Below are positions 9,743 to 16,545 of a stretch of 64,000 bases of DNA, piece by piece. The position numbers and the translations under genes are program-made. Origin of the DNA: Thermoanaerobaculia bacterium (GTDB lineage Bacteria > Acidobacteriota > Thermoanaerobaculia > Multivoradales > UBA5704). Location of the stretch: NCBI GenBank assembly GCA_035556715.1, contig DATMER010000074.1, forward strand, positions 3,737-67,736. Direction: 5' to 3'. How positions within the stretch are numbered: position 1 is the stretch's first letter; each line of letters starts with the position of its first letter. Under the pieces are notes generated by a model. That model saw only the letters and a program-made list of their open reading frames with translations. It was not told the origin of the DNA and ran no database searches.

Positions 9743-10504
9743 CTACTCGCCCCGCTCACCGAGCAGGGAACGCAGGCGCTTCAGCTCTGCCTGCGCCTCC
9801 TCGGCATGGGCCAGCGCCCCTTGCGGGATCAGGCGGCCATCCGAATCGAAGAGCCGCACCCAATCACTGTCCCAGCTCTCGTGCGGGTAGACGATCCAAG
9901 CCGGCCCATGCCAGGCGCCGAGGTCGAAGCCGAGCACCTCGCTGCGGAGCCGGCCTTGGCTGTCGGGCTGCATGGGTTGGTAGCGGTCGCCCTCCAGACG
10001 GTAGCCTTCGAGGAGCAGCCGGTCGAAGTCCCAGAGGAAGTACTCCCGAGTGCGGAAGACCCGGGCGTAGAGGTCCATCTTGGTCGTGCGGTCGACCTTC
10101 TCCGTGGTCGGGGACAGCATCTCCAGGATGAGATCGGGCAGCCGTCCGCCCTCTTCCCAGGACACCCAGCCCTTGCGCGGGCGCCGCGGGACCTGGTCCA
10201 CGAAGAAGAAGTCCGGACCGCGGAAGTAGAGCCGTCCCGACGCCACCTCCCAGGCCTGCTCCATGGAGTAGTAGACGAAGTTGTTTCCGCCGGCATGGAA
10301 CTCGGTCCGGCCGCTCTCCCACATGGCCCGGTGCGTCACGTCGATCAGAAGCTGCAACTGCACAGCGTGAGCATTGTTCTCCATCGGCTCCCCGTCATCG
10401 AAGACGAGCTCGAAGGGAAGGGGCTCGAGCGCCGAGAAGGCTGGCTGGCTCATGGCAGATCTCCCGTCGGAGTCGTTCGCGGGCGAAACTTTATTCGTCC
10501 TCAC
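9743..10504 (-). CDS. Uma2-family (DUF820) putative restriction-like endonuclease
   Basis: FELVFDDGEPMENNAHA ... PDLILEMLSPTTEKVDRTTKMDLYARVFRTREYFLWDFD matches the Uma2 PD-(D/E)xK core; start may be the internal MSQPAF at 10453. Confidence 0.7.
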   Translation of the reverse strand: MRTNKVSPANDSDGRSAMSQPAFSALEPLPFELVFDDGEPMENNAHAVQLQLLIDVTHRAMWESGRTEFHAGGNNFVYYSMEQAWEVASGRLYFRGPDFFFVDQVPRRPRKGWVSWEEGGRLPDLILEMLSPTTEKVDRTTKMDLYARVFRTREYFLWDFDRLLLEGYRLEGDRYQPMQPDSQGRLRSEVLGFDLGAWHGPAWIVYPHESWDSDWVRLFDSDGRLIPQGALAHAEEAQAELKRLRSLLGERGE

Positions 10505-12708
10505 CGCAAAACGGAAGAGGGAACGGATCTCCCTTTTCCTCCTCCAGGAAAGGATAGCATGGGACGCTCCACCATCTGCCCTCCCACCAGCTCGGCGTAG
10601 AGGCCGCCCCGGGCAACCAGGTCATCGTGGCTGCCCTGCTCCGCAATGCGGCCCCCGGCGAGGACCAGGATCAGGTCGGCGTTCTTGATGGTGCTCAGGC
10701 GGTGGGCGATGACGATGCGGGTACAGTCCAGGCCCTCCAGCTCGCGCTGGATCTTCGCCTCGGTGAGGGCGTCCAGGGAGCTGGTCGCCTCGTCCAGGAG
10801 GAGGATGCGCGGCCTCTGCACCAGGGCGCGGGCGAGGGCCAGGCGCTGGCGCTGGCCCCCCGAGAGCGCGGAGCCCGCCTCCCCCACCGGCATGTCGTAG
10901 CCCATGGGCATGGCCACGATCTCGTCGTGGAGATGGGCCTTCCGGGCCGCCTCCATGACCTGGTCGAGGGGCAGCGCCGGGTCCGCCAGGGCGATGTTGC
11001 TCCGCACGCTCCCTGCCATCAGGTGCGGGCTCTGGGGCACGATGCCGATCTGCCGCCGCACCGATCGCAGGTCGAGCGCGGCCAGGTCCATCCCGTCATA
11101 GAGGATGGTCCCCCGGGTGGGACGCTGGAGCCCCAGGAGCAGCCAGGCCAGGGTGGTCTTGCCGGCTCCGGAGGCCCCCACCAGGGCCACGAACGAGCCC
11201 TCCGGGATGTCCAGCGAGACGTCCCGCAGGACCGGAGGATCCAGGGGGGAGTATTGGAAGCTGACGCCGTCCAGGGTGATGCGGCCCTGGAGCCGGCCGG
11301 GCTCGGGCGCGCTTCCGGGCTCCTGCTCGCGGGGCAGCTCCAGGATGTCGTCGAGCCGGTCCAGATAGCCGCCCAGGACCTGGAGCTGGAAGGCGGTCTG
11401 GACCAGTTGCGTGAGGGGCTCGAGGAAGCCGACGGCCAGGGCGTTGAGCGCCAGCATGGTGCCCAGGGTGAGCTCCCCCCGCAGGACCAGCCAGGCGCCG
11501 AGGGCCAGGACCAGGAGGGGCGAGCCCAGGCTGAGGGCTCCCAGGGCCGAGTCCACCCAGGCCGACAGCCGGCCGCGGCGCAGCGAGGCGTTGAGCACCC
11601 GCGTGAACAGGCCGGACCAGTGGCTCAGGGCCCGCGACTCGGCGCCGATGGCCTTGAAGATCTCGATGCCGCCCAGGAGCTGGACCTGGAAGGCGTTCGC
11701 GTCGGACTCGGCCCGCAGCGACCCGTCCATCAGGTCCCGGTAGCGCCGCCGGTTGAGCAGGAACAGCCCGATCCGCGCCAGTCCCAGGATCAGGACGACC
11801 AGCCCCAGCCGCCAGTCCGCCAGCAGGATCAGTGACAGGTAGATCACGACCAGCGCTCCGTCCAGCACGCCGGAGAGCACGCCCGTGGTGAGGGTCTCGC
11901 GCACGGTCGCGTTGCTGTTGAGCCGCATCAGGAGGTCGCCCACGGGGCGGGTCTGGAACACGGAGAACGGCAGGGCCAGGAGGTGCTCCAGGAAGTCGGT
12001 CGCCAGCCGGGAGTCCACCACGGTGCGCAGGTGCAGCAGCAGGTGGGAGCGGACCAGGGAGATCAGGAAGTGGGAGCCCACCAGGGCCGCCATGCCCGCG
12101 GCCGCCACGGCCAGGAGGTGGTAGTCGGACCGGGGGATCACCCGGTCCACGAGCACGGCCAGGAGGATCGGCACGGCCAGGGCCAGGAGCCGGACCAGGA
12201 CCGAGGTGGCCAGGATCTTCGAAAGGATTCCCGAGCGGGCGATGACCCGGAGGTAGCGCCGCACACCCGGGGGCCGGCGCTCCGGCTCGCCGGGCACGAA
12301 GCCCTCTCCCCTCTCCAGGATGAGGGCCACGCCCGTGAAGCTGCGGTCCAGCTCCTCCCGGTCCACCCGCCGCCGGCCGAGCGCGGGGTCGAGGATCCAC
12401 GCGCCCCCCTTGCCGTCCGCACGGTCGAAGACCACGAAATGGGTGAAGCACCAGTGGAGGACCGAGCCCCGGGGGAGCTGGCCGAGGTTGTCCAGGTCGT
12501 CGATGCGCACTCCGCGGGAGCGCAGGCCGTAGCGCTTCGCCGCCTCGACCAGGGCCGCGGCGGACGCGCCGTAGCGGGTGACGCCCGCGGCCTCCCGGAC
12601 CTCTTCGAGACGGACCCGGCGGCCATGCCAAGCGAGGATCATGGCCAGGCAGGCCGCGCCGCAATCCGCCTCCGTGGTCTGCTGCACGAGCGGGATCGGG
12701 CGCATCAC
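10501..12708 (-). CDS. lanT: Lanthipeptide/bacteriocin exporter: C39 peptidase domain + ABC transporter (LanT / SunT-type)
   Basis: N-terminal C39 peptidase (QQTTEADCGAACLAMI; His in HWCFTHFVV); six-TM ABC exporter core; Walker A GASGAGKTT, LSGGQRQR signature, Walker B ILLLDEATS. Start is GTG 12708 or ATG 12705. Confidence 0.85.
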   Translation of the reverse strand: MMRPIPLVQQTTEADCGAACLAMILAWHGRRVRLEEVREAAGVTRYGASAAALVEAAKRYGLRSRGVRIDDLDNLGQLPRGSVLHWCFTHFVVFDRADGKGGAWILDPALGRRRVDREELDRSFTGVALILERGEGFVPGEPERRPPGVRRYLRVIARSGILSKILATSVLVRLLALAVPILLAVLVDRVIPRSDYHLLAVAAAGMAALVGSHFLISLVRSHLLLHLRTVVDSRLATDFLEHLLALPFSVFQTRPVGDLLMRLNSNATVRETLTTGVLSGVLDGALVVIYLSLILLADWRLGLVVLILGLARIGLFLLNRRRYRDLMDGSLRAESDANAFQVQLLGGIEIFKAIGAESRALSHWSGLFTRVLNASLRRGRLSAWVDSALGALSLGSPLLVLALGAWLVLRGELTLGTMLALNALAVGFLEPLTQLVQTAFQLQVLGGYLDRLDDILELPREQEPGSAPEPGRLQGRITLDGVSFQYSPLDPPVLRDVSLDIPEGSFVALVGASGAGKTTLAWLLLGLQRPTRGTILYDGMDLAALDLRSVRRQIGIVPQSPHLMAGSVRSNIALADPALPLDQVMEAARKAHLHDEIVAMPMGYDMPVGEAGSALSGGQRQRLALARALVQRPRILLLDEATSSLDALTEAKIQRELEGLDCTRIVIAHRLSTIKNADLILVLAGGRIAEQGSHDDLVARGGLYAELVGGQMVERPMLSFPGGGKGRSVPSSVLR

Positions 12709-12878
12709 GATCCTCCAAGGAGGAAAGCGGCGAAGGCGCCGGCTGCACCCAGGACCAGGAGAACCGCCGGCCAGGTCCAGCGCACCCAGGCCGTGGGCAG
12801 CTCCAGGGGCTCTGCTTCGGGAACGCGCGCCCGATGCTCCAGAGCGCGGGGACGATAGACCAGCTCGTCGCTGCTCAT
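12705..12878 (-). CDS. 57-aa single-TM protein between lanM and lanT (truncated HlyD-like N-terminus or immunity-type peptide)
   Basis: ATG overlaps the lanM stop (ATGA) and its TGA overlaps the lanT start (GTGATG), so it is translationally coupled on both sides. It has one hydrophobic helix (WPAVLLVLGAAGAFAAFLL) and no Cys. Confidence 0.45.
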   Translation of the reverse strand: MSSDELVYRPRALEHRARVPEAEPLELPTAWVRWTWPAVLLVLGAAGAFAAFLLGGS

Positions 12879-16176: not shown

Positions 16177-16413
16177 CTAGCAGCAGCAGATGGTGCCGCC
16201 GCTGAAGCAGGTGTCGTTACAGCACGGATCGATGGTGCGGTGACAGGATTCGAAGCAGGTCGAGTGAGAGGCGCCGAGGACGTTCCGGAGAGCGTCCTGG
16301 CTCAGCTCGACCATGCCGACCGGGTTGCCCGGCAGCACGGTCCGCTGCTCCTCGGAGAGGTTGAAGAAGTAGTCCGCGTCACGCCAGGCACGGATGATCT
16401 CGTCCTTGTTCAT
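16177..16413 (-). CDS. lanA: Lanthipeptide precursor peptide (LanA), double-glycine-type leader + Cys/Ser/Thr-rich core
   Basis: 78 aa. Leader has an ELS motif, hydrophobics at -4/-7/-12 and ends in GA (NVLGA|). Core SHSTCFESCHRTIDPCCNDTCFSGGTICCC has 8 Cys, 4 Ser and 4 Thr. RBS AAGGAGA precedes ATG 16413. Confidence 0.8.
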   Translation of the reverse strand: MNKDEIIRAWRDADYFFNLSEEQRTVLPGNPVGMVELSQDALRNVLGASHSTCFESCHRTIDPCCNDTCFSGGTICCC

Positions 16414-16504
16414 GTGAGTCTCCTTCCTGTGTTGAGGACGATCACAGAGCCGGACGCGCCGTTCCCTGCCGCGGAGGAATCGGGCGGCAGGCTCCAGGAG
16501 GCCA

Positions 16505-16545
16505 CATCTTAGCAGATATAGATAAACATGCAAGTCATTCAACTT
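16505..16545 (-). promoter_or_regulatory. AT-rich sigma70-like promoter candidate for lanA operon
   Basis: Minus-strand TTGCAT-N16-TAAGAT sits in a ~45-bp AT-rich island in otherwise ~68% GC DNA, about 100 nt upstream of the lanA ATG. Confidence 0.4.

What the first reader, a model, noticed from the sequence alone, without database searches (positions are those of the whole stretch)
10501..16545. Compact class II lanthipeptide biosynthetic cluster (promoter-lanA-hairpin-lanM-57aa ORF-lanT) in an Acidobacteria-like genome
All genes needed to make and export a lanthipeptide sit in one minus-strand operon: a precursor with a double-glycine leader, a full-length LanM with intact dehydratase and zinc-ligand cyclase motifs, and a C39-peptidase ABC exporter whose Cys/His protease residues are intact. 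An AT-rich sigma70-like promoter island lies upstream in otherwise 68% GC DNA. Lanthipeptides from ADOP-permease-containing (Acidobacteria-type) genomes are essentially uncharacterised, and this precursor is unusual (see next finding). This is the strongest candidate for a new system in the window.
Basis: partly seen in the sequence, partly recalled or inferred. Interest (0 to 1): 0.85.

Follow-up and report, generated by a model that had tools for sequence, protein, structure and literature searches.

The report
Minimal acidobacterial class II lanthipeptide operon
This is a real, intact four-gene operon from an acidobacterium for making and exporting a small, very cysteine-rich ring-containing peptide; the kind of system is well known, but this peptide family and a conserved 57-residue transporter helper are uncharacterised.

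Summary
On the minus strand lie lanA (16177-16413), lanM (12875-16069), a 57-aa ORF (12705-12878) and lanT (10501-12708). The last three are translationally coupled.

- **Enzymes:** LanM scores 881 bits on the NCBIfam LanM model, and every CylM-defined catalytic residue and the zinc ligands are present. LanT carries an intact C39 protease.
- **Precursor:** LanA has a mersacidin/lichenicidin-type leader (54.6 bits, cutoff 23.5) ending in GA. Its 30-aa core has 8 Ser/Thr and 8 Cys.
- **Source:** GenBank already names these genes, in a Thermoanaerobaculia (Acidobacteriota) MAG.

New here:
- The core belongs to an uncharacterised family of about 18 sequence clusters with an invariant C-terminal CCC. 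It lacks mersacidin's lipid II motif.
- The 57-aa ORF is conserved under purifying selection. It is homologous to the cytoplasmic tail plus membrane anchor of a HlyD-type adaptor whose periplasmic domains are lost.
- A promoter (TTGCAT-N16-TAAGAT) and a hairpin after lanA are conserved across related loci.

The novelty claim is overstated. A 2026 paper characterised related Thermoanaerobaculia class II clusters (tha and the). One of those genomes also carries an ortholog of this operon.

Verdict: a new member of a known kind, of moderate interest.

The parts
16499..16553 (-). AT-rich promoter island. The conserved sigma-70-like hexamers are -35 TTGCAT (16533-16528) and -10 TAAGAT (16511-16506), with a 16-nt spacer. 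It lies 4-58 nt downstream of the stop codon of the upstream ADOP gene.
   Evidence: It is the lowest-GC 40-mer in the window. ACTTGC and CTA.G.T are invariant in an alignment with L032, L033, L035 and L003. The strict consensus scan was negative. Promoter function is inferred.
16447..16495 (-). Conserved element between the promoter and the ribosome-binding site: GGAGCC..CCTGCCGC..GCGGCAGGGAAC..GGCTC. It is an inverted repeat centred on CCGCGG. Its function is unknown; it could be a 5'-UTR structure or an operator.
   Evidence: It is conserved in 10 loci, with CGCG, GG and GC columns invariant. It folds as a stem-loop in the window. RNAalifold support is weak and shows no convincing covariation. 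There is no Rfam match.
16177..16413 (-). lanA, the precursor peptide (78 aa). The leader is residues 1-48 (16270-16413) and ends ...VLGA. The core is residues 49-78 (16180-16269): SHSTCFESCHRTIDPCCNDTCFSGGTICCC. The ribosome-binding site GGAAGGAG is at 16420-16427.
   Evidence: It scores 54.6 bits on TIGR03898 against a cutoff of 23.5. There are 18 homolog clusters with G(-2) invariant and a conserved core. Hydrophobic residues sit at -4, -7, -12 and -15. The core has 8 Ser/Thr and 8 Cys.
16150..16169 (-). Hairpin 1, immediately after the lanA stop codon (CGGGGGC-GCCGCGG-GCCCCG). Its apex GCCGCGG is conserved across relatives. There is no U-tract.
   Evidence: The same hairpin is found in 11 loci, with an invariant apex and stems of 5-12 bp that differ in sequence. 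In the window the stem is the shortest.
16100..16137 (-). Hairpin 2 (CGGCGGCGGTCTTCCGG...CCGGAGGCCGCCGCCG), a GC stem of about 16 bp with no U-tract. It is a likely attenuator or stability element that sets the lanA:lanM ratio.
   Evidence: It appears in the minimum-free-energy and centroid folds. Homologous hairpins are present in the closest relatives L032, L033 and L035. The energy z-score for the whole spacer is only -1.16.
12875..16069 (-). lanM, the bifunctional class II lanthipeptide synthetase (1064 aa). It has a kinase-like dehydratase domain and a zinc-dependent LanC-like cyclase domain. It starts at GTG with ribosome-binding site AAGGAGG at 16077-16083.
   Evidence: It matches DUF4135 at 389 bits and LANC_like at 226 bits, and TIGR03897 at 881.5 bits. 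The best solved structure is LicM2 6st5, E 1e-116. All CylM catalytic equivalents and zinc ligands are present. It is 44% identical to the first 399 aa of ThaM.
12705..12878 (-). The 57-aa ORF, a 'mini-adaptor'. It has a conserved cytoplasmic N-terminal segment (DELvYRPRALEHRARVP..EPLELP..WVRWTWP) followed by one transmembrane helix (about residues 36-57). It is homologous to the N-terminus of a HlyD-type membrane fusion protein, with the periplasmic domains absent.
   Evidence: It has 4-nt overlaps with lanM and lanT. There are 12 homolog clusters of 56-63 aa. dN/dS is 0-0.31 across the ten locus pairs, and 0.12-0.31 leaving out the near-identical L033/L035 pair. hhalign against the 320-aa HlyD-family protein P0038 gives probability 96.9% and E 1.4e-10. 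P0038 lies directly upstream of a C39-ABC gene 49% identical to LanT. Hydropathy is 2.1-2.2 over residues 36-57. There is no Pfam or NCBIfam hit.
10501..12708 (-). lanT, a peptidase-containing ABC transporter (735 aa). It has an N-terminal C39 double-glycine protease, six-helix transmembrane domain and nucleotide-binding domain.
   Evidence: It matches Peptidase_C39, ABC_membrane and ABC_tran. The best NCBIfam hit is NHLM_micro_ABC1 at 616 bits, below its 853 cutoff. The C39 domain is closest to LahT150 6mpz, E 8e-27, and aligns with PCAT1 and ComA. Q10/C16/H90/D107 and the ATPase motifs are intact.
10508..10534 (-). Terminator-like hairpin plus T-run, overlapping the last codons of lanT. It may mark the end of the operon.
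   Evidence: It comes from the consensus scan. Three sites were found against 1.4 expected in 7 kb, so this is weak evidence.

Best explanation
This is a functional, minimal class II lanthipeptide operon (lanA-lanM-miniadaptor-lanT) of a Thermoanaerobaculia (Acidobacteriota) bacterium.

**Proposed mechanism.** The steps are inferred from the gene families unless marked as shown.
1. Transcription starts at a sigma-70-type promoter (TTGCAT-N16-TAAGAT).
2. Two GC-rich hairpins after lanA let only part of the transcripts continue into lanM. The precursor is therefore made in excess over the enzymes.
3. LanM binds the mersacidin/lichenicidin-type leader of LanA.
4. Its kinase-like domain phosphorylates Ser/Thr of the 30-residue core and eliminates the phosphate, giving dehydroalanine or dehydrobutyrine. 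Up to 8 sites are available.
5. Its zinc cyclase domain adds Cys thiols to these residues to form (methyl)lanthionine rings. Up to 8 Cys are available.
6. LanT cuts the leader after Gly(-2)-Ala(-1) with its C39 domain and pumps the core across the inner membrane.
7. The 57-aa protein is a conserved, membrane-anchored remnant of the HlyD-type adaptor that ancestrally partnered this transporter. It keeps only the cytoplasmic tail and anchor. It most likely acts on the cytoplasmic face of LanT, in substrate docking or complex assembly, and does not bridge to the outer membrane.

**Shown here:** gene content, intact catalytic residues, conservation of all four genes, purifying selection on the small ORF, and its homology and positional equivalence to an adaptor N-terminus.

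**Not shown:** the product's ring pattern and its biological activity.
For: **Domain and family matches.** They are well above cutoffs.

**Catalytic residues.** The residues that CylM mutagenesis showed to be essential are all present. So are the LanC motifs GHG, WCHG and CHG. The C39 Gln/Cys/His/Asp residues align with LahT150, PCAT1 and ComA.

**Leader.** It carries G(-2)A(-1) and hydrophobic residues at -4, -7, -12 and -15.

**Synteny.** The four-gene order lanA-lanM-(56-63 aa)-lanT recurs in L003/L004, L031/L032, L033/L034 and L035. LanM is 72% and LanT 82% identical in L003. The flanking genes (ADOP, Uma2, CHAP) are not conserved.

**Small ORF.**
- dN/dS is 0-0.31 across the ten locus pairs, and 0.12-0.31 leaving out the near-identical L033/L035 pair.
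- A profile search of 1.84 billion proteins found only 8 relatives. They include 207-aa and 252-aa forms and a 320-aa HlyD-family protein.
- hhalign gives probability 96.9%.
- The 320-aa protein sits directly upstream of a LanT homolog.
- In a sister subfamily the same motif is fused into the N-terminal extension of LanT.
- A review states that the cytoplasmic regions of ABC/T1SS adaptors are essential for substrate recognition and assembly (PMC8277102).

**Regulatory elements.** The promoter hexamers and the post-lanA hairpin are conserved.

**Precedent.** A related Thermoanaerobaculia LanM, ThaM, is experimentally active on a precursor with the same leader family. It is 44% identical over its first 399 residues.
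Against: - No experiment shows expression, dehydration, cyclisation or export for this operon.
- Near the cluster there is no immunity gene (LanFEG or LanI), no regulator and no outer-membrane factor. How a diderm releases the product, and whether it is an antibiotic, is therefore open.
- The small ORF has no hit in Pfam, NCBIfam or other family libraries.
- Its library-wide E-value to the HlyD-family protein is only 1e-3. The stronger numbers come from pairwise comparison.
- The hairpins lack U-tracts and their fold energy is not significant on its own.
- LanT falls below the curated cutoffs of every NCBIfam transporter equivalog.
Confidence: 0.8

Rival explanations
1. The 57-aa ORF is a small membrane immunity peptide that protects the producer from its own lanthipeptide. 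On this reading it is not a transporter accessory.
For: It is small, has a single transmembrane helix, is co-transcribed with the biosynthetic genes, and no other immunity gene lies in the cluster. Small hydrophobic immunity proteins are known in bacteriocin loci (general knowledge).
Against: - The conserved part is the cytoplasmic N-terminus, not the membrane segment.
- That part is homologous to the N-terminus of a HlyD-family adaptor placed identically upstream of a LanT homolog.
- In the sister subfamily the motif has no transmembrane helix and is fused to the cytoplasmic N-terminus of LanT. That makes no sense for a membrane shield.
Confidence: 0.1
2. The operon is a decaying relic. The adaptor gene has been truncated to a stub, export is broken, and the cluster is silent or non-functional.
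For: The adaptor has lost about 260 residues compared with the 320-aa form. No outer-membrane factor, regulator or immunity gene is nearby.
Against: - The stub is kept at 56-63 aa in 12 sequence clusters under purifying selection.
- Translational coupling is preserved.
- All catalytic residues of LanM and LanT are intact.
- The whole operon, its promoter motif and its hairpin are conserved in genomes with dS of 0.6-0.9.
Confidence: 0.05
3. The product is not a membrane- or lipid II-targeting antibiotic. It is instead a thiol-rich peptide whose spare Cys and His residues bind metal or act in redox chemistry or protease inhibition. Only some Cys are locked in thioether rings.
For: - Cores are 27-40% Cys, and in the sister subfamily Cys (9) outnumber Ser/Thr (5-8). 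Not all Cys can therefore form lanthionines.
- The C-terminal CCC is invariant, and two His are conserved in the window's subfamily.
- The mersacidin Glu-containing ring motif is absent.
- There is no immunity gene.
- The related ThaA product keeps free Cys and inhibits neutrophil elastase rather than being reported as an antibiotic.
Against: There is no direct evidence for any activity. Cys-rich lanthipeptides with disulfides are also known among antibiotics (general knowledge). This rival concerns only the product's role, not the biosynthetic mechanism.
Confidence: 0.35

Closest known systems
tha cluster (ThaA/ThaM/ThaO) and the cluster (TheA/TheM/TheO) of Thermoanaerobaculia, Nature 2026, PMC13083261
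   Same: - They come from the same bacterial class.
- The precursor has a mersacidin/lichenicidin-type leader: ThaA is 36% identical to LanA over residues 1-53 and TheA 34%.
- The core is cysteine-rich and ends in Cys residues.
- The synthetase is class II: the first 399 aa of ThaM are 44% identical to LanM.
- A C39 peptidase and ABC transport genes are present.
- The genome that holds tha (GCA_977880245, MAG48) also holds an ortholog of the window operon, L003.
   Different: - The window has no GMC oxidoreductase ThaO. It also lacks the GGC thiazole motif at the leader/core junction, having LGA-SHS instead.
- Its core is unrelated in sequence and longer: 30 aa with 8 Cys and 8 Ser/Thr, against 16 aa with 5 Cys and 3 Ser/Thr.
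- The paper reports no conserved cluster architecture for tha, whereas the window's four-gene order is conserved.
Mersacidin, lichenicidin and haloduracin-alpha type class II lantibiotics (NCBIfam TIGR03898)
   Same: The leader matches the family model at twice the cutoff. Modification is by LanM, and LicM2 is the best solved relative. Processing and export are by a LanT-type protease-transporter.
   Different: - The core lacks the CTxTxEC lipid II-binding ring. The Glu at core position 7 varies across the family (E/N/Q/T/M/V/R...).
- There is no LanD decarboxylase, no second peptide or second LanM, and no LanFEG immunity or LanRK regulation.
- The host is a Gram-negative acidobacterium rather than a Firmicute.
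Peptidase-containing ABC transporters with a HlyD-type adaptor (CvaB/CvaA-type and NHLP bacteriocin export systems)
   Same: - LanT's best NCBIfam match is the NHLP export ABC1 subunit.
- The gene directly upstream of LanT is homologous to the N-terminus of a HlyD-family adaptor. That adaptor occupies the same position next to a 49%-identical transporter.
   Different: - The adaptor is reduced to 57 aa, a cytoplasmic tail plus a transmembrane helix. It has no lipoyl, hairpin or barrel domains, so it cannot reach an outer-membrane channel.
- There is no second ABC subunit, no NHLP-type leader and no TolC-like gene.
- LanT scores below the family cutoff (616 against 853 bits).

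Membership tests
Class II (LanM-type) lanthipeptide biosynthetic gene cluster | A single bifunctional synthetase with an N-terminal kinase-like dehydratase (DUF4135) and a C-terminal LanC-like cyclase | tested here: met
   DUF4135 matches at 389 bits over residues 210-578 and LANC_like at 226 bits over residues 703-1057. TIGR03897 scores 881.5 bits against a cutoff of 304.
Class II (LanM-type) lanthipeptide biosynthetic gene cluster | Catalytic residues for phosphorylation, for elimination and for zinc binding | tested here: met
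   D260, H262, K282, D357, H359, N362, D374, R512 and T518 align with CylM D252, H254, K274, D347, H349, N352, D364, R506 and T512. H869, C937, C982 and H983 lie in the GHG, WCHG and CHG motifs.
Class II (LanM-type) lanthipeptide biosynthetic gene cluster | An adjacent precursor gene with a leader and a core containing Ser/Thr and Cys | tested here: met
   lanA lies 107 nt upstream of lanM. It has a 48-aa leader and a 30-aa core with 8 Ser/Thr and 8 Cys.
Class II (LanM-type) lanthipeptide biosynthetic gene cluster | A product that contains (methyl)lanthionine rings | not testable with these tools
   This needs co-expression and mass spectrometry. The unmodified core is 3229.16 Da and would be 3085.08 Da after 8 dehydrations.
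[quoted passage not shown] | A leader peptide matching the family model above its cutoff | tested here: met
   It scores 54.6 bits against a cutoff of 23.5, covering residues 5-48 and the whole 44-position model.
[quoted passage not shown] | A mersacidin-like lipid II-binding ring (CTxTxEC with a conserved Glu) in the core | tested here: not met
   The motif is not present. The only Glu (core position 7) is not conserved among 18 homologs. The motif definition itself comes from general knowledge.
Peptidase-containing ABC transporter (LanT / AMS / PCAT) | An N-terminal C39 domain with the Gln/Cys/His/Asp catalytic set, a transmembrane domain and a nucleotide-binding domain | tested here: met
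   It has the three Pfam domains. Q10, C16, H90 and D107 align with LahT150, PCAT1 and ComA. Walker A, LSGGQ, Walker B and the H-loop are present.
Peptidase-containing ABC transporter (LanT / AMS / PCAT) | A substrate leader with a double-glycine-type cut site and hydrophobic residues at -4, -7 and -12 | tested here: met
   The leader has G(-2) A(-1), V(-4), L(-7), L(-12) and M(-15). G(-2) is invariant in the family.
HlyD-family membrane fusion / periplasmic adaptor protein (for the 57-aa ORF) | An N-terminal cytoplasmic segment plus a single transmembrane anchor, encoded next to the partner ABC transporter | tested here: met
   hhalign gives probability 96.9% and E 1.4e-10 against residues 10-59 of the HlyD-family protein P0038. 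P0038 and orf57 both lie directly upstream of homologous C39-ABC genes.
HlyD-family membrane fusion / periplasmic adaptor protein (for the 57-aa ORF) | Periplasmic lipoyl, alpha-hairpin and beta-barrel domains | tested here: not met
   The protein ends 2 residues after the transmembrane helix. It has no HlyD or Biotin_lipoyl hits, whereas P0038 has them. It is therefore a remnant of the family and not a functional member.
tha-type thiazole-lanthipeptide cluster (ThaA/ThaM/ThaO) | A GMC-family oxidoreductase and a GGC motif at the start of the core | tested here: not met
   No GMC oxidoreductase appears among the Pfam-annotated genes within 10 kb. The ThaO N-terminal fragment has no significant match in the window, though only a 54-aa fragment was available. 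The junction reads LGA-SHS.
NHLP bacteriocin export system (TIGR03796/03797/03794) | An ABC1 subunit above the cutoff, together with an ABC2 subunit and a full HlyD subunit | tested here: not met
   ABC1 scores 616 bits against a cutoff of 853. There is only one ABC gene, and the adaptor is truncated.
Two-peptide lantibiotic | Two precursors, usually with two LanM enzymes | tested here: not met
   The window has a single lanA and a single lanM, by tblastn and leader-motif scan.

The most novel reading that the evidence does not exclude
The window represents a distinct, Thermoanaerobaculia-restricted lanthipeptide family. Its product would be an unusually densely cross-linked peptide: up to 8 thioether rings in 30 residues, with the invariant C-terminal CCC closing nested rings onto the N-terminal Ser/Thr cluster, as Ser2-Cys16 does in ThaA. 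Alternatively it would be a partly cyclised thiol/His-rich metal-binding peptide. Its export would depend on a new type of PCAT subunit: a 57-residue adaptor remnant that works purely on the cytoplasmic side of the transporter.
Probability: 0.3. Interest if true: 0.6.

Novelty: new member of a known kind. Interest (0 to 1): 0.4.

Why it matters
The operon itself is ordinary. Standard tools and GenBank's own annotation already recognise its two key genes. Three things give it some value.

1. **A clean test case.** It is one of the smallest self-contained clusters (about 6 kb, no tailoring enzymes) for an uncharacterised, very cysteine-rich core family. Acidobacteriota are only now being opened up for natural products. 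The cluster is therefore cheap to synthesise and test alongside the tha and the clusters.

2. **The 57-residue adaptor remnant.** Relatives show a series of forms: 320 aa, then 252 or 207 aa, then 57 aa, or a fusion into the transporter. This says the cytoplasmic tail of HlyD-type adaptors has a function that is kept when the periplasmic bridge is discarded. That is a natural dissection of a part of type I/PCAT export that remains poorly understood.

3. **Candidate regulatory signals.** The conserved promoter hexamers and the CCGCGG-centred elements flanking lanA are candidates for such signals in a phylum where few are known.

Tried and rejected
- **Family scans of the 57-aa ORF.** Pfam and NCBIfam scans of the ORF and its 58-aa, 207-aa and fused relatives at E up to 10 gave nothing meaningful. 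Homology only emerged from a profile search plus hhalign.
- **Strict sigma-70 consensus scan.** It gave 0 sites in 10000-17000.
- **Rfam.** Nothing was significant around lanA. DUF1874 RNA scored 21.9 bits against a gathering score of 42. The whole window holds only one tRNA.
- **Consensus fold of the conserved upstream element.** RNAalifold gave a weak energy (-5.8 kcal/mol), a positive covariation term and stems that mostly do not vary. I do not claim an RNA structure.
- **ADOP permease upstream as immunity transporter.** Rejected, because no related locus has it. The same holds for the Uma2 and CHAP/PG-binding genes downstream.
- **Mersacidin-like lipid II motif in the core.** Rejected.
- **A 1:1 Ser/Thr:Cys ratio as a family rule implying full cyclisation.** It does not hold across the family.
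- **GMC oxidoreductase, LanD or a second precursor in the window.** None was found. The weak FAD-like match at 27105 lies inside an SMC gene.
- **Fold energy of the hairpins as evidence.** It is not significant in 70% GC DNA.
- **Ungapped pair counting of hairpin 1.** It fails in four loci because of bulges, so I relied on per-locus folds.

Full report
**1. What is there**

Four co-directional genes lie on the minus strand between 10501 and 16413:
- lanA, 16177-16413, 78 aa
- lanM, 12875-16069, 1064 aa
- a 57-aa ORF, 12705-12878
- lanT, 10501-12708, 735 aa

An independent gene caller on the source metagenome contig (ENA ERZ27251540, 75.7 kb; also a Logan contig) called the same four genes. lanM and the small ORF overlap as ATGA. 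The small ORF and lanT overlap as GTGA. A GGAGGA ribosome-binding site precedes lanT. lanA and lanM each have an AAGGAG-type ribosome-binding site.

**2. Identity of the proteins**

*LanM*
- It matches Pfam DUF4135 (389 bits) and LANC_like (226 bits), and the NCBIfam LanM model at 881.5 bits against a cutoff of 304.
- The best solved relative is LicM2 (6st5, E 1e-116), followed by CylM.
- I aligned it to CylM and took the functionally tested residues from the CylM structure paper (PMC4550811). All are present: D260, H262, K282, D357, H359, N362, D374, R512 and T518, for CylM D252, H254, K274, D347, H349, N352, D364, R506 and T512.
- The cyclase motifs GHG (H869), WCHG (C937) and CHG (C982, H983) are also present.

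*LanT*
- It has Peptidase_C39, ABC_membrane and ABC_tran domains.
- Its first 150 residues align best with the lanthipeptide leader protease LahT150 (6mpz, E 8e-27), and also with PCAT1 and ComA. Gln10, Cys16, His90 and Asp107 are in place, and the ATPase motifs are intact.
- Its best NCBIfam match is the NHLP bacteriocin export ABC1 subunit. At 616 bits it is below that model's cutoff of 853.

*LanA*
- It matches the mersacidin/lichenicidin type 2 lantibiotic leader model at 54.6 bits, cutoff 23.5.
- The leader ends ...L(-12)..L(-7)..V(-4)LG(-2)A(-1), the pattern PCAT proteases recognise (the pattern itself is general knowledge).
- The 30-residue core is SHSTCFESCHRTIDPCCNDTCFSGGTICCC, with 8 Ser/Thr and 8 Cys.

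The co-expression criterion cannot be tested here.

**3. Source organism and prior annotation**

The identical LanA, LanM and 57-aa proteins are in GenBank from a Thermoanaerobaculia bacterium MAG:
- HWM92098.1, 'type 2 lanthipeptide synthetase LanM family protein'
- HWM92097.1, 'hypothetical protein VN493_15135'

Thermoanaerobaculia is a class of Acidobacteriota. The upstream neighbour is an ADOP-family duplicated permease, at 727 bits.

**4. The precursor family**

A search of 5.8 billion protein clusters found 18 LanA clusters at 54-81% identity. All come from metagenomes or MAGs, and none is characterised. They share the leader, an invariant Gly at -2 and a core pattern.
- The window's subfamily reads SHSTCWxSCHRTxDPCCxDTCxSGxxxCCC.
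- A sister subfamily reads ASCxxSCCSDCCNSCxxGxxxCCC.

Both end in an invariant CCC, sometimes CCCC or CCCCC.

A scan of one genome per species found full-length relatives only in Thermoanaerobaculia and other Acidobacteriota MAGs, plus one MAG labelled delta proteobacterium. The leader alone, joined to unrelated cores, occurs in cyanobacteria, Chloroflexia, Gemmatimonadales, Blastocatellia and others.

Cores are 27-40% Cys. The Ser/Thr count (5-13) does not track the Cys count (8-10). In the sister subfamily Cys exceeds Ser/Thr. Full one-to-one cyclisation therefore cannot be the family rule, and eight dehydrations is a ceiling.

The Glu at core position 7 is not conserved, so the mersacidin-type lipid II-binding ring is absent. 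The resemblance to mersacidin is confined to the leader.

**5. The conserved unit**

The order lanA-lanM-(56-63 aa ORF)-lanT recurs in L003/L004, L031/L032, L033/L034 and L035. The ADOP, Uma2 and CHAP/PG-binding neighbours are found in no other locus.

Within 10 kb there is no LanD, LanFEG, LanI, LanRK, GMC oxidoreductase or outer-membrane factor. The window holds no second precursor or synthetase. The cluster is therefore these four genes plus their control region.

**6. The 57-aa ORF**

No family library recognises it. It is nonetheless a real gene.
- Twelve sequence clusters of 56-63 aa share 29 invariant positions, concentrated in the N-terminal part DELxYRPRALEHRARVP..E.L.LP..W.RWTWP.
- Pairwise dN/dS is 0-0.31 across the ten locus pairs, and 0.12-0.31 at dS 0.4-0.9 once the near-identical L033/L035 pair (dS 0.07, no nonsynonymous change) is left out.
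- Residues 36-57 form one hydrophobic helix.

A profile search of 1.84 billion representative proteins found only eight relatives. Among them were a 207-aa protein (E 8e-11), a 252-aa protein (2e-8) and a 320-aa protein, P0038 (1e-3).
- P0038 is a short HlyD-family adaptor, with hits to Biotin_lipoyl_2, HlyD_3 and TIGR01843.
- Profile-to-sequence comparison of the 57-aa family with P0038 gives probability 96.9% and E 1.4e-10, with 46% identity over 50 columns. The match covers P0038 residues 10-59, its cytoplasmic tail and membrane anchor.
- P0038 lies with a 4-nt overlap directly upstream of a C39-ABC gene that is 49% identical to the window's LanT. The homology is therefore positional as well as sequence-based.
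- The 252-aa form shares both the N-terminal motif and the C-terminal barrel region with P0038, but lacks the lipoyl and hairpin part.
- In locus L006 the 207-aa form replaces the 57-aa ORF between lanM and lanT.
- In the sister subfamily the motif (EITYRPAALAQQAKGLGEEGE) has no membrane helix. It is fused, behind a weak GAF-like segment, to the N-terminus of a 900-aa LanT.

Taken together, this looks like stepwise reduction of a HlyD-type adaptor to its cytoplasmic tail. That tail is always kept next to, or within, the transporter.

A review of tripartite and type I systems states that the cytoplasmic regions of ABC/T1SS adaptors are essential for substrate recognition and complex assembly, yet are structurally little known (PMC8277102). 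I therefore infer that the 57-aa protein is a cytoplasmic-face accessory of LanT. It cannot bridge to the outer membrane. How the peptide leaves the periplasm of this diderm is unknown.

**7. Control elements**

*Promoter*
- The AT-rich island at 16499-16553 is the lowest-GC stretch of the window.
- A strict consensus scan is negative.
- Alignment with the upstream regions of L032, L033, L035 and L003 shows invariant ACTTGC and CTA.G.T blocks. These give -35 TTGCAT (16533-16528) and -10 TAAGAT (16511-16506), spaced 16-17 nt in the window, L032, L033 and L035 but closer together in L003.
- That supports a sigma-70-type promoter, with different hexamers from those one would pick by eye.

*Element between promoter and ribosome-binding site*
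- It reads GGAGCC..CCGCGGCAGGG..GGCTCC (16447-16495) and is conserved in ten loci.
- It can fold, but a consensus fold has little support. Its role is open.

*Hairpins after lanA*
- A hairpin with the invariant apex GCCGCGG is present in all eleven loci examined. Its stems are 5-12 bp and differ in sequence.
- A second, stronger hairpin (16100-16137) is shared with the three closest relatives.
- Neither has a U-tract, and fold energy alone is not significant.
- By analogy with other lantibiotic operons (general knowledge), I read them as partial terminators or stabilisers that keep lanA mRNA in excess.

*Operon end*
- A weak terminator-like site overlaps the end of lanT.

**8. Comparison with what is known**

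The claim that acidobacterial lanthipeptides are essentially uncharacterised no longer holds. A 2026 Nature paper (PMC13083261) expressed three acidobacterial RiPP clusters.
- One is a class III cluster (aci).
- The class II tha cluster, from a coral-associated Thermoanaerobaculia MAG, has ThaA with a mersacidin/lichenicidin-type leader and a Cys-rich core, ThaM, and a GMC oxidoreductase ThaO that makes a thiazole.
- The third is the related 'the' cluster from a soil Thermoanaerobaculia MAG.

ThaM makes two nested lanthionines (Ser2-Cys16 and Thr6-Cys13) and leaves other Cys free. The product inhibits neutrophil elastase with an IC50 of 2.6 uM.

Compared with the window:
- LanA is 36% identical to ThaA over the leader, and the cores are unrelated.
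- LanM is 44% identical to the available first 399 residues of ThaM.
- The window has no ThaO and no GGC motif.
- The tha genome (GCA_977880245, 'Ca. Moanaiibacterium opulentum') also carries an ortholog of the window operon, L003. LanA is 67% identical, LanM 72% and LanT 82%, and there is a 58-aa ORF. The paper did not study it.

No other paper in the library links Thermoanaerobaculia or Acidobacteriota to a class II lanthipeptide with experimental data.

**9. Verdict**

The finding is correct and the operon looks functional. It is a known kind of system that standard annotation already recognises. Its product family is uncharacterised and unusually Cys-rich. Its conserved adaptor remnant is a small but real oddity.

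I rate it a new member of a known kind, with interest 0.4.

Noticed in passing
window 16447-16495 (-) and 16150-16169 (-); loci L003, L005-L012, L032, L033, L035: lanA is bracketed by two conserved palindromic elements that both contain CCGCGG. One is the GGAGCC..CCGCGGCAGGG..GGCTCC element about 35-80 nt upstream of the start codon. The other is the apex GCCGCGG of the hairpin just after the stop codon. They could be a shared protein-binding or RNA-processing signal. This is unexplained.
   Followed up: partly
L003 (GCA_977880245.1, OZ375331.1, 10678607-10698843): The 12.2-Mb coral-associated genome 'Ca. Moanaiibacterium opulentum' (MAG48), in which the tha cluster was characterised, also carries an unstudied ortholog of the window operon: lanA, lanM, a 58-aa ORF and lanT.
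   Followed up: partly
L005/L009, L008, L010, L011 (sister subfamily loci): In these loci LanT is about 900 aa. Its N-terminal extension holds a weak GAF-like segment and the adaptor-tail motif without a membrane helix. L005 also has two lanA copies separated by a DinB_2 gene. An ECF sigma, a zf-HC2 anti-sigma and an S8 peptidase lie just downstream.
   Followed up: partly
L007 (MAG labelled uncultured delta proteobacterium), 11585-11968: In this locus lanA-lanM is followed only by a C39 peptidase domain (matching LanT residues 5-132). No ABC transporter part lies within 4 kb, so this may be a stand-alone leader protease.
   Followed up: no
L006 3990-4613 and P0035: These are intermediate-length adaptor forms of 207 and 252 aa. 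They keep the tail, the membrane helix and the C-terminal barrel region but lack the lipoyl and hairpin domains of HlyD proteins.
   Followed up: partly
window 32484-33276 and 33399-33479 (-): The only other strongly AT-rich islands in the window lie next to the single tRNA gene, tRNA-Leu(taa). This may be an integration site or a small foreign insert.
   Followed up: no
window about 20032-23330: This stretch holds genes for a TPR protein, a TIR_2 plus AAA_16 protein and a PIN-domain protein (from precomputed Pfam hits on the source contig). It looks like a defence-type neighbourhood unrelated to the lanthipeptide operon.
   Followed up: no
window 8841-9653 (-) and 9743-10504 (-): A PG_binding_1 plus CHAP peptidoglycan hydrolase and a Uma2-family endonuclease lie just downstream of lanT on the same strand. 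Neither is conserved next to the operon in other genomes.
   Followed up: yes
window 16557-19031 (-): An ADOP-family duplicated MacB/FtsX-type permease (727 bits) ends 143 nt upstream of lanA. I considered it as an immunity transporter, but it is absent from all related loci.
   Followed up: yes
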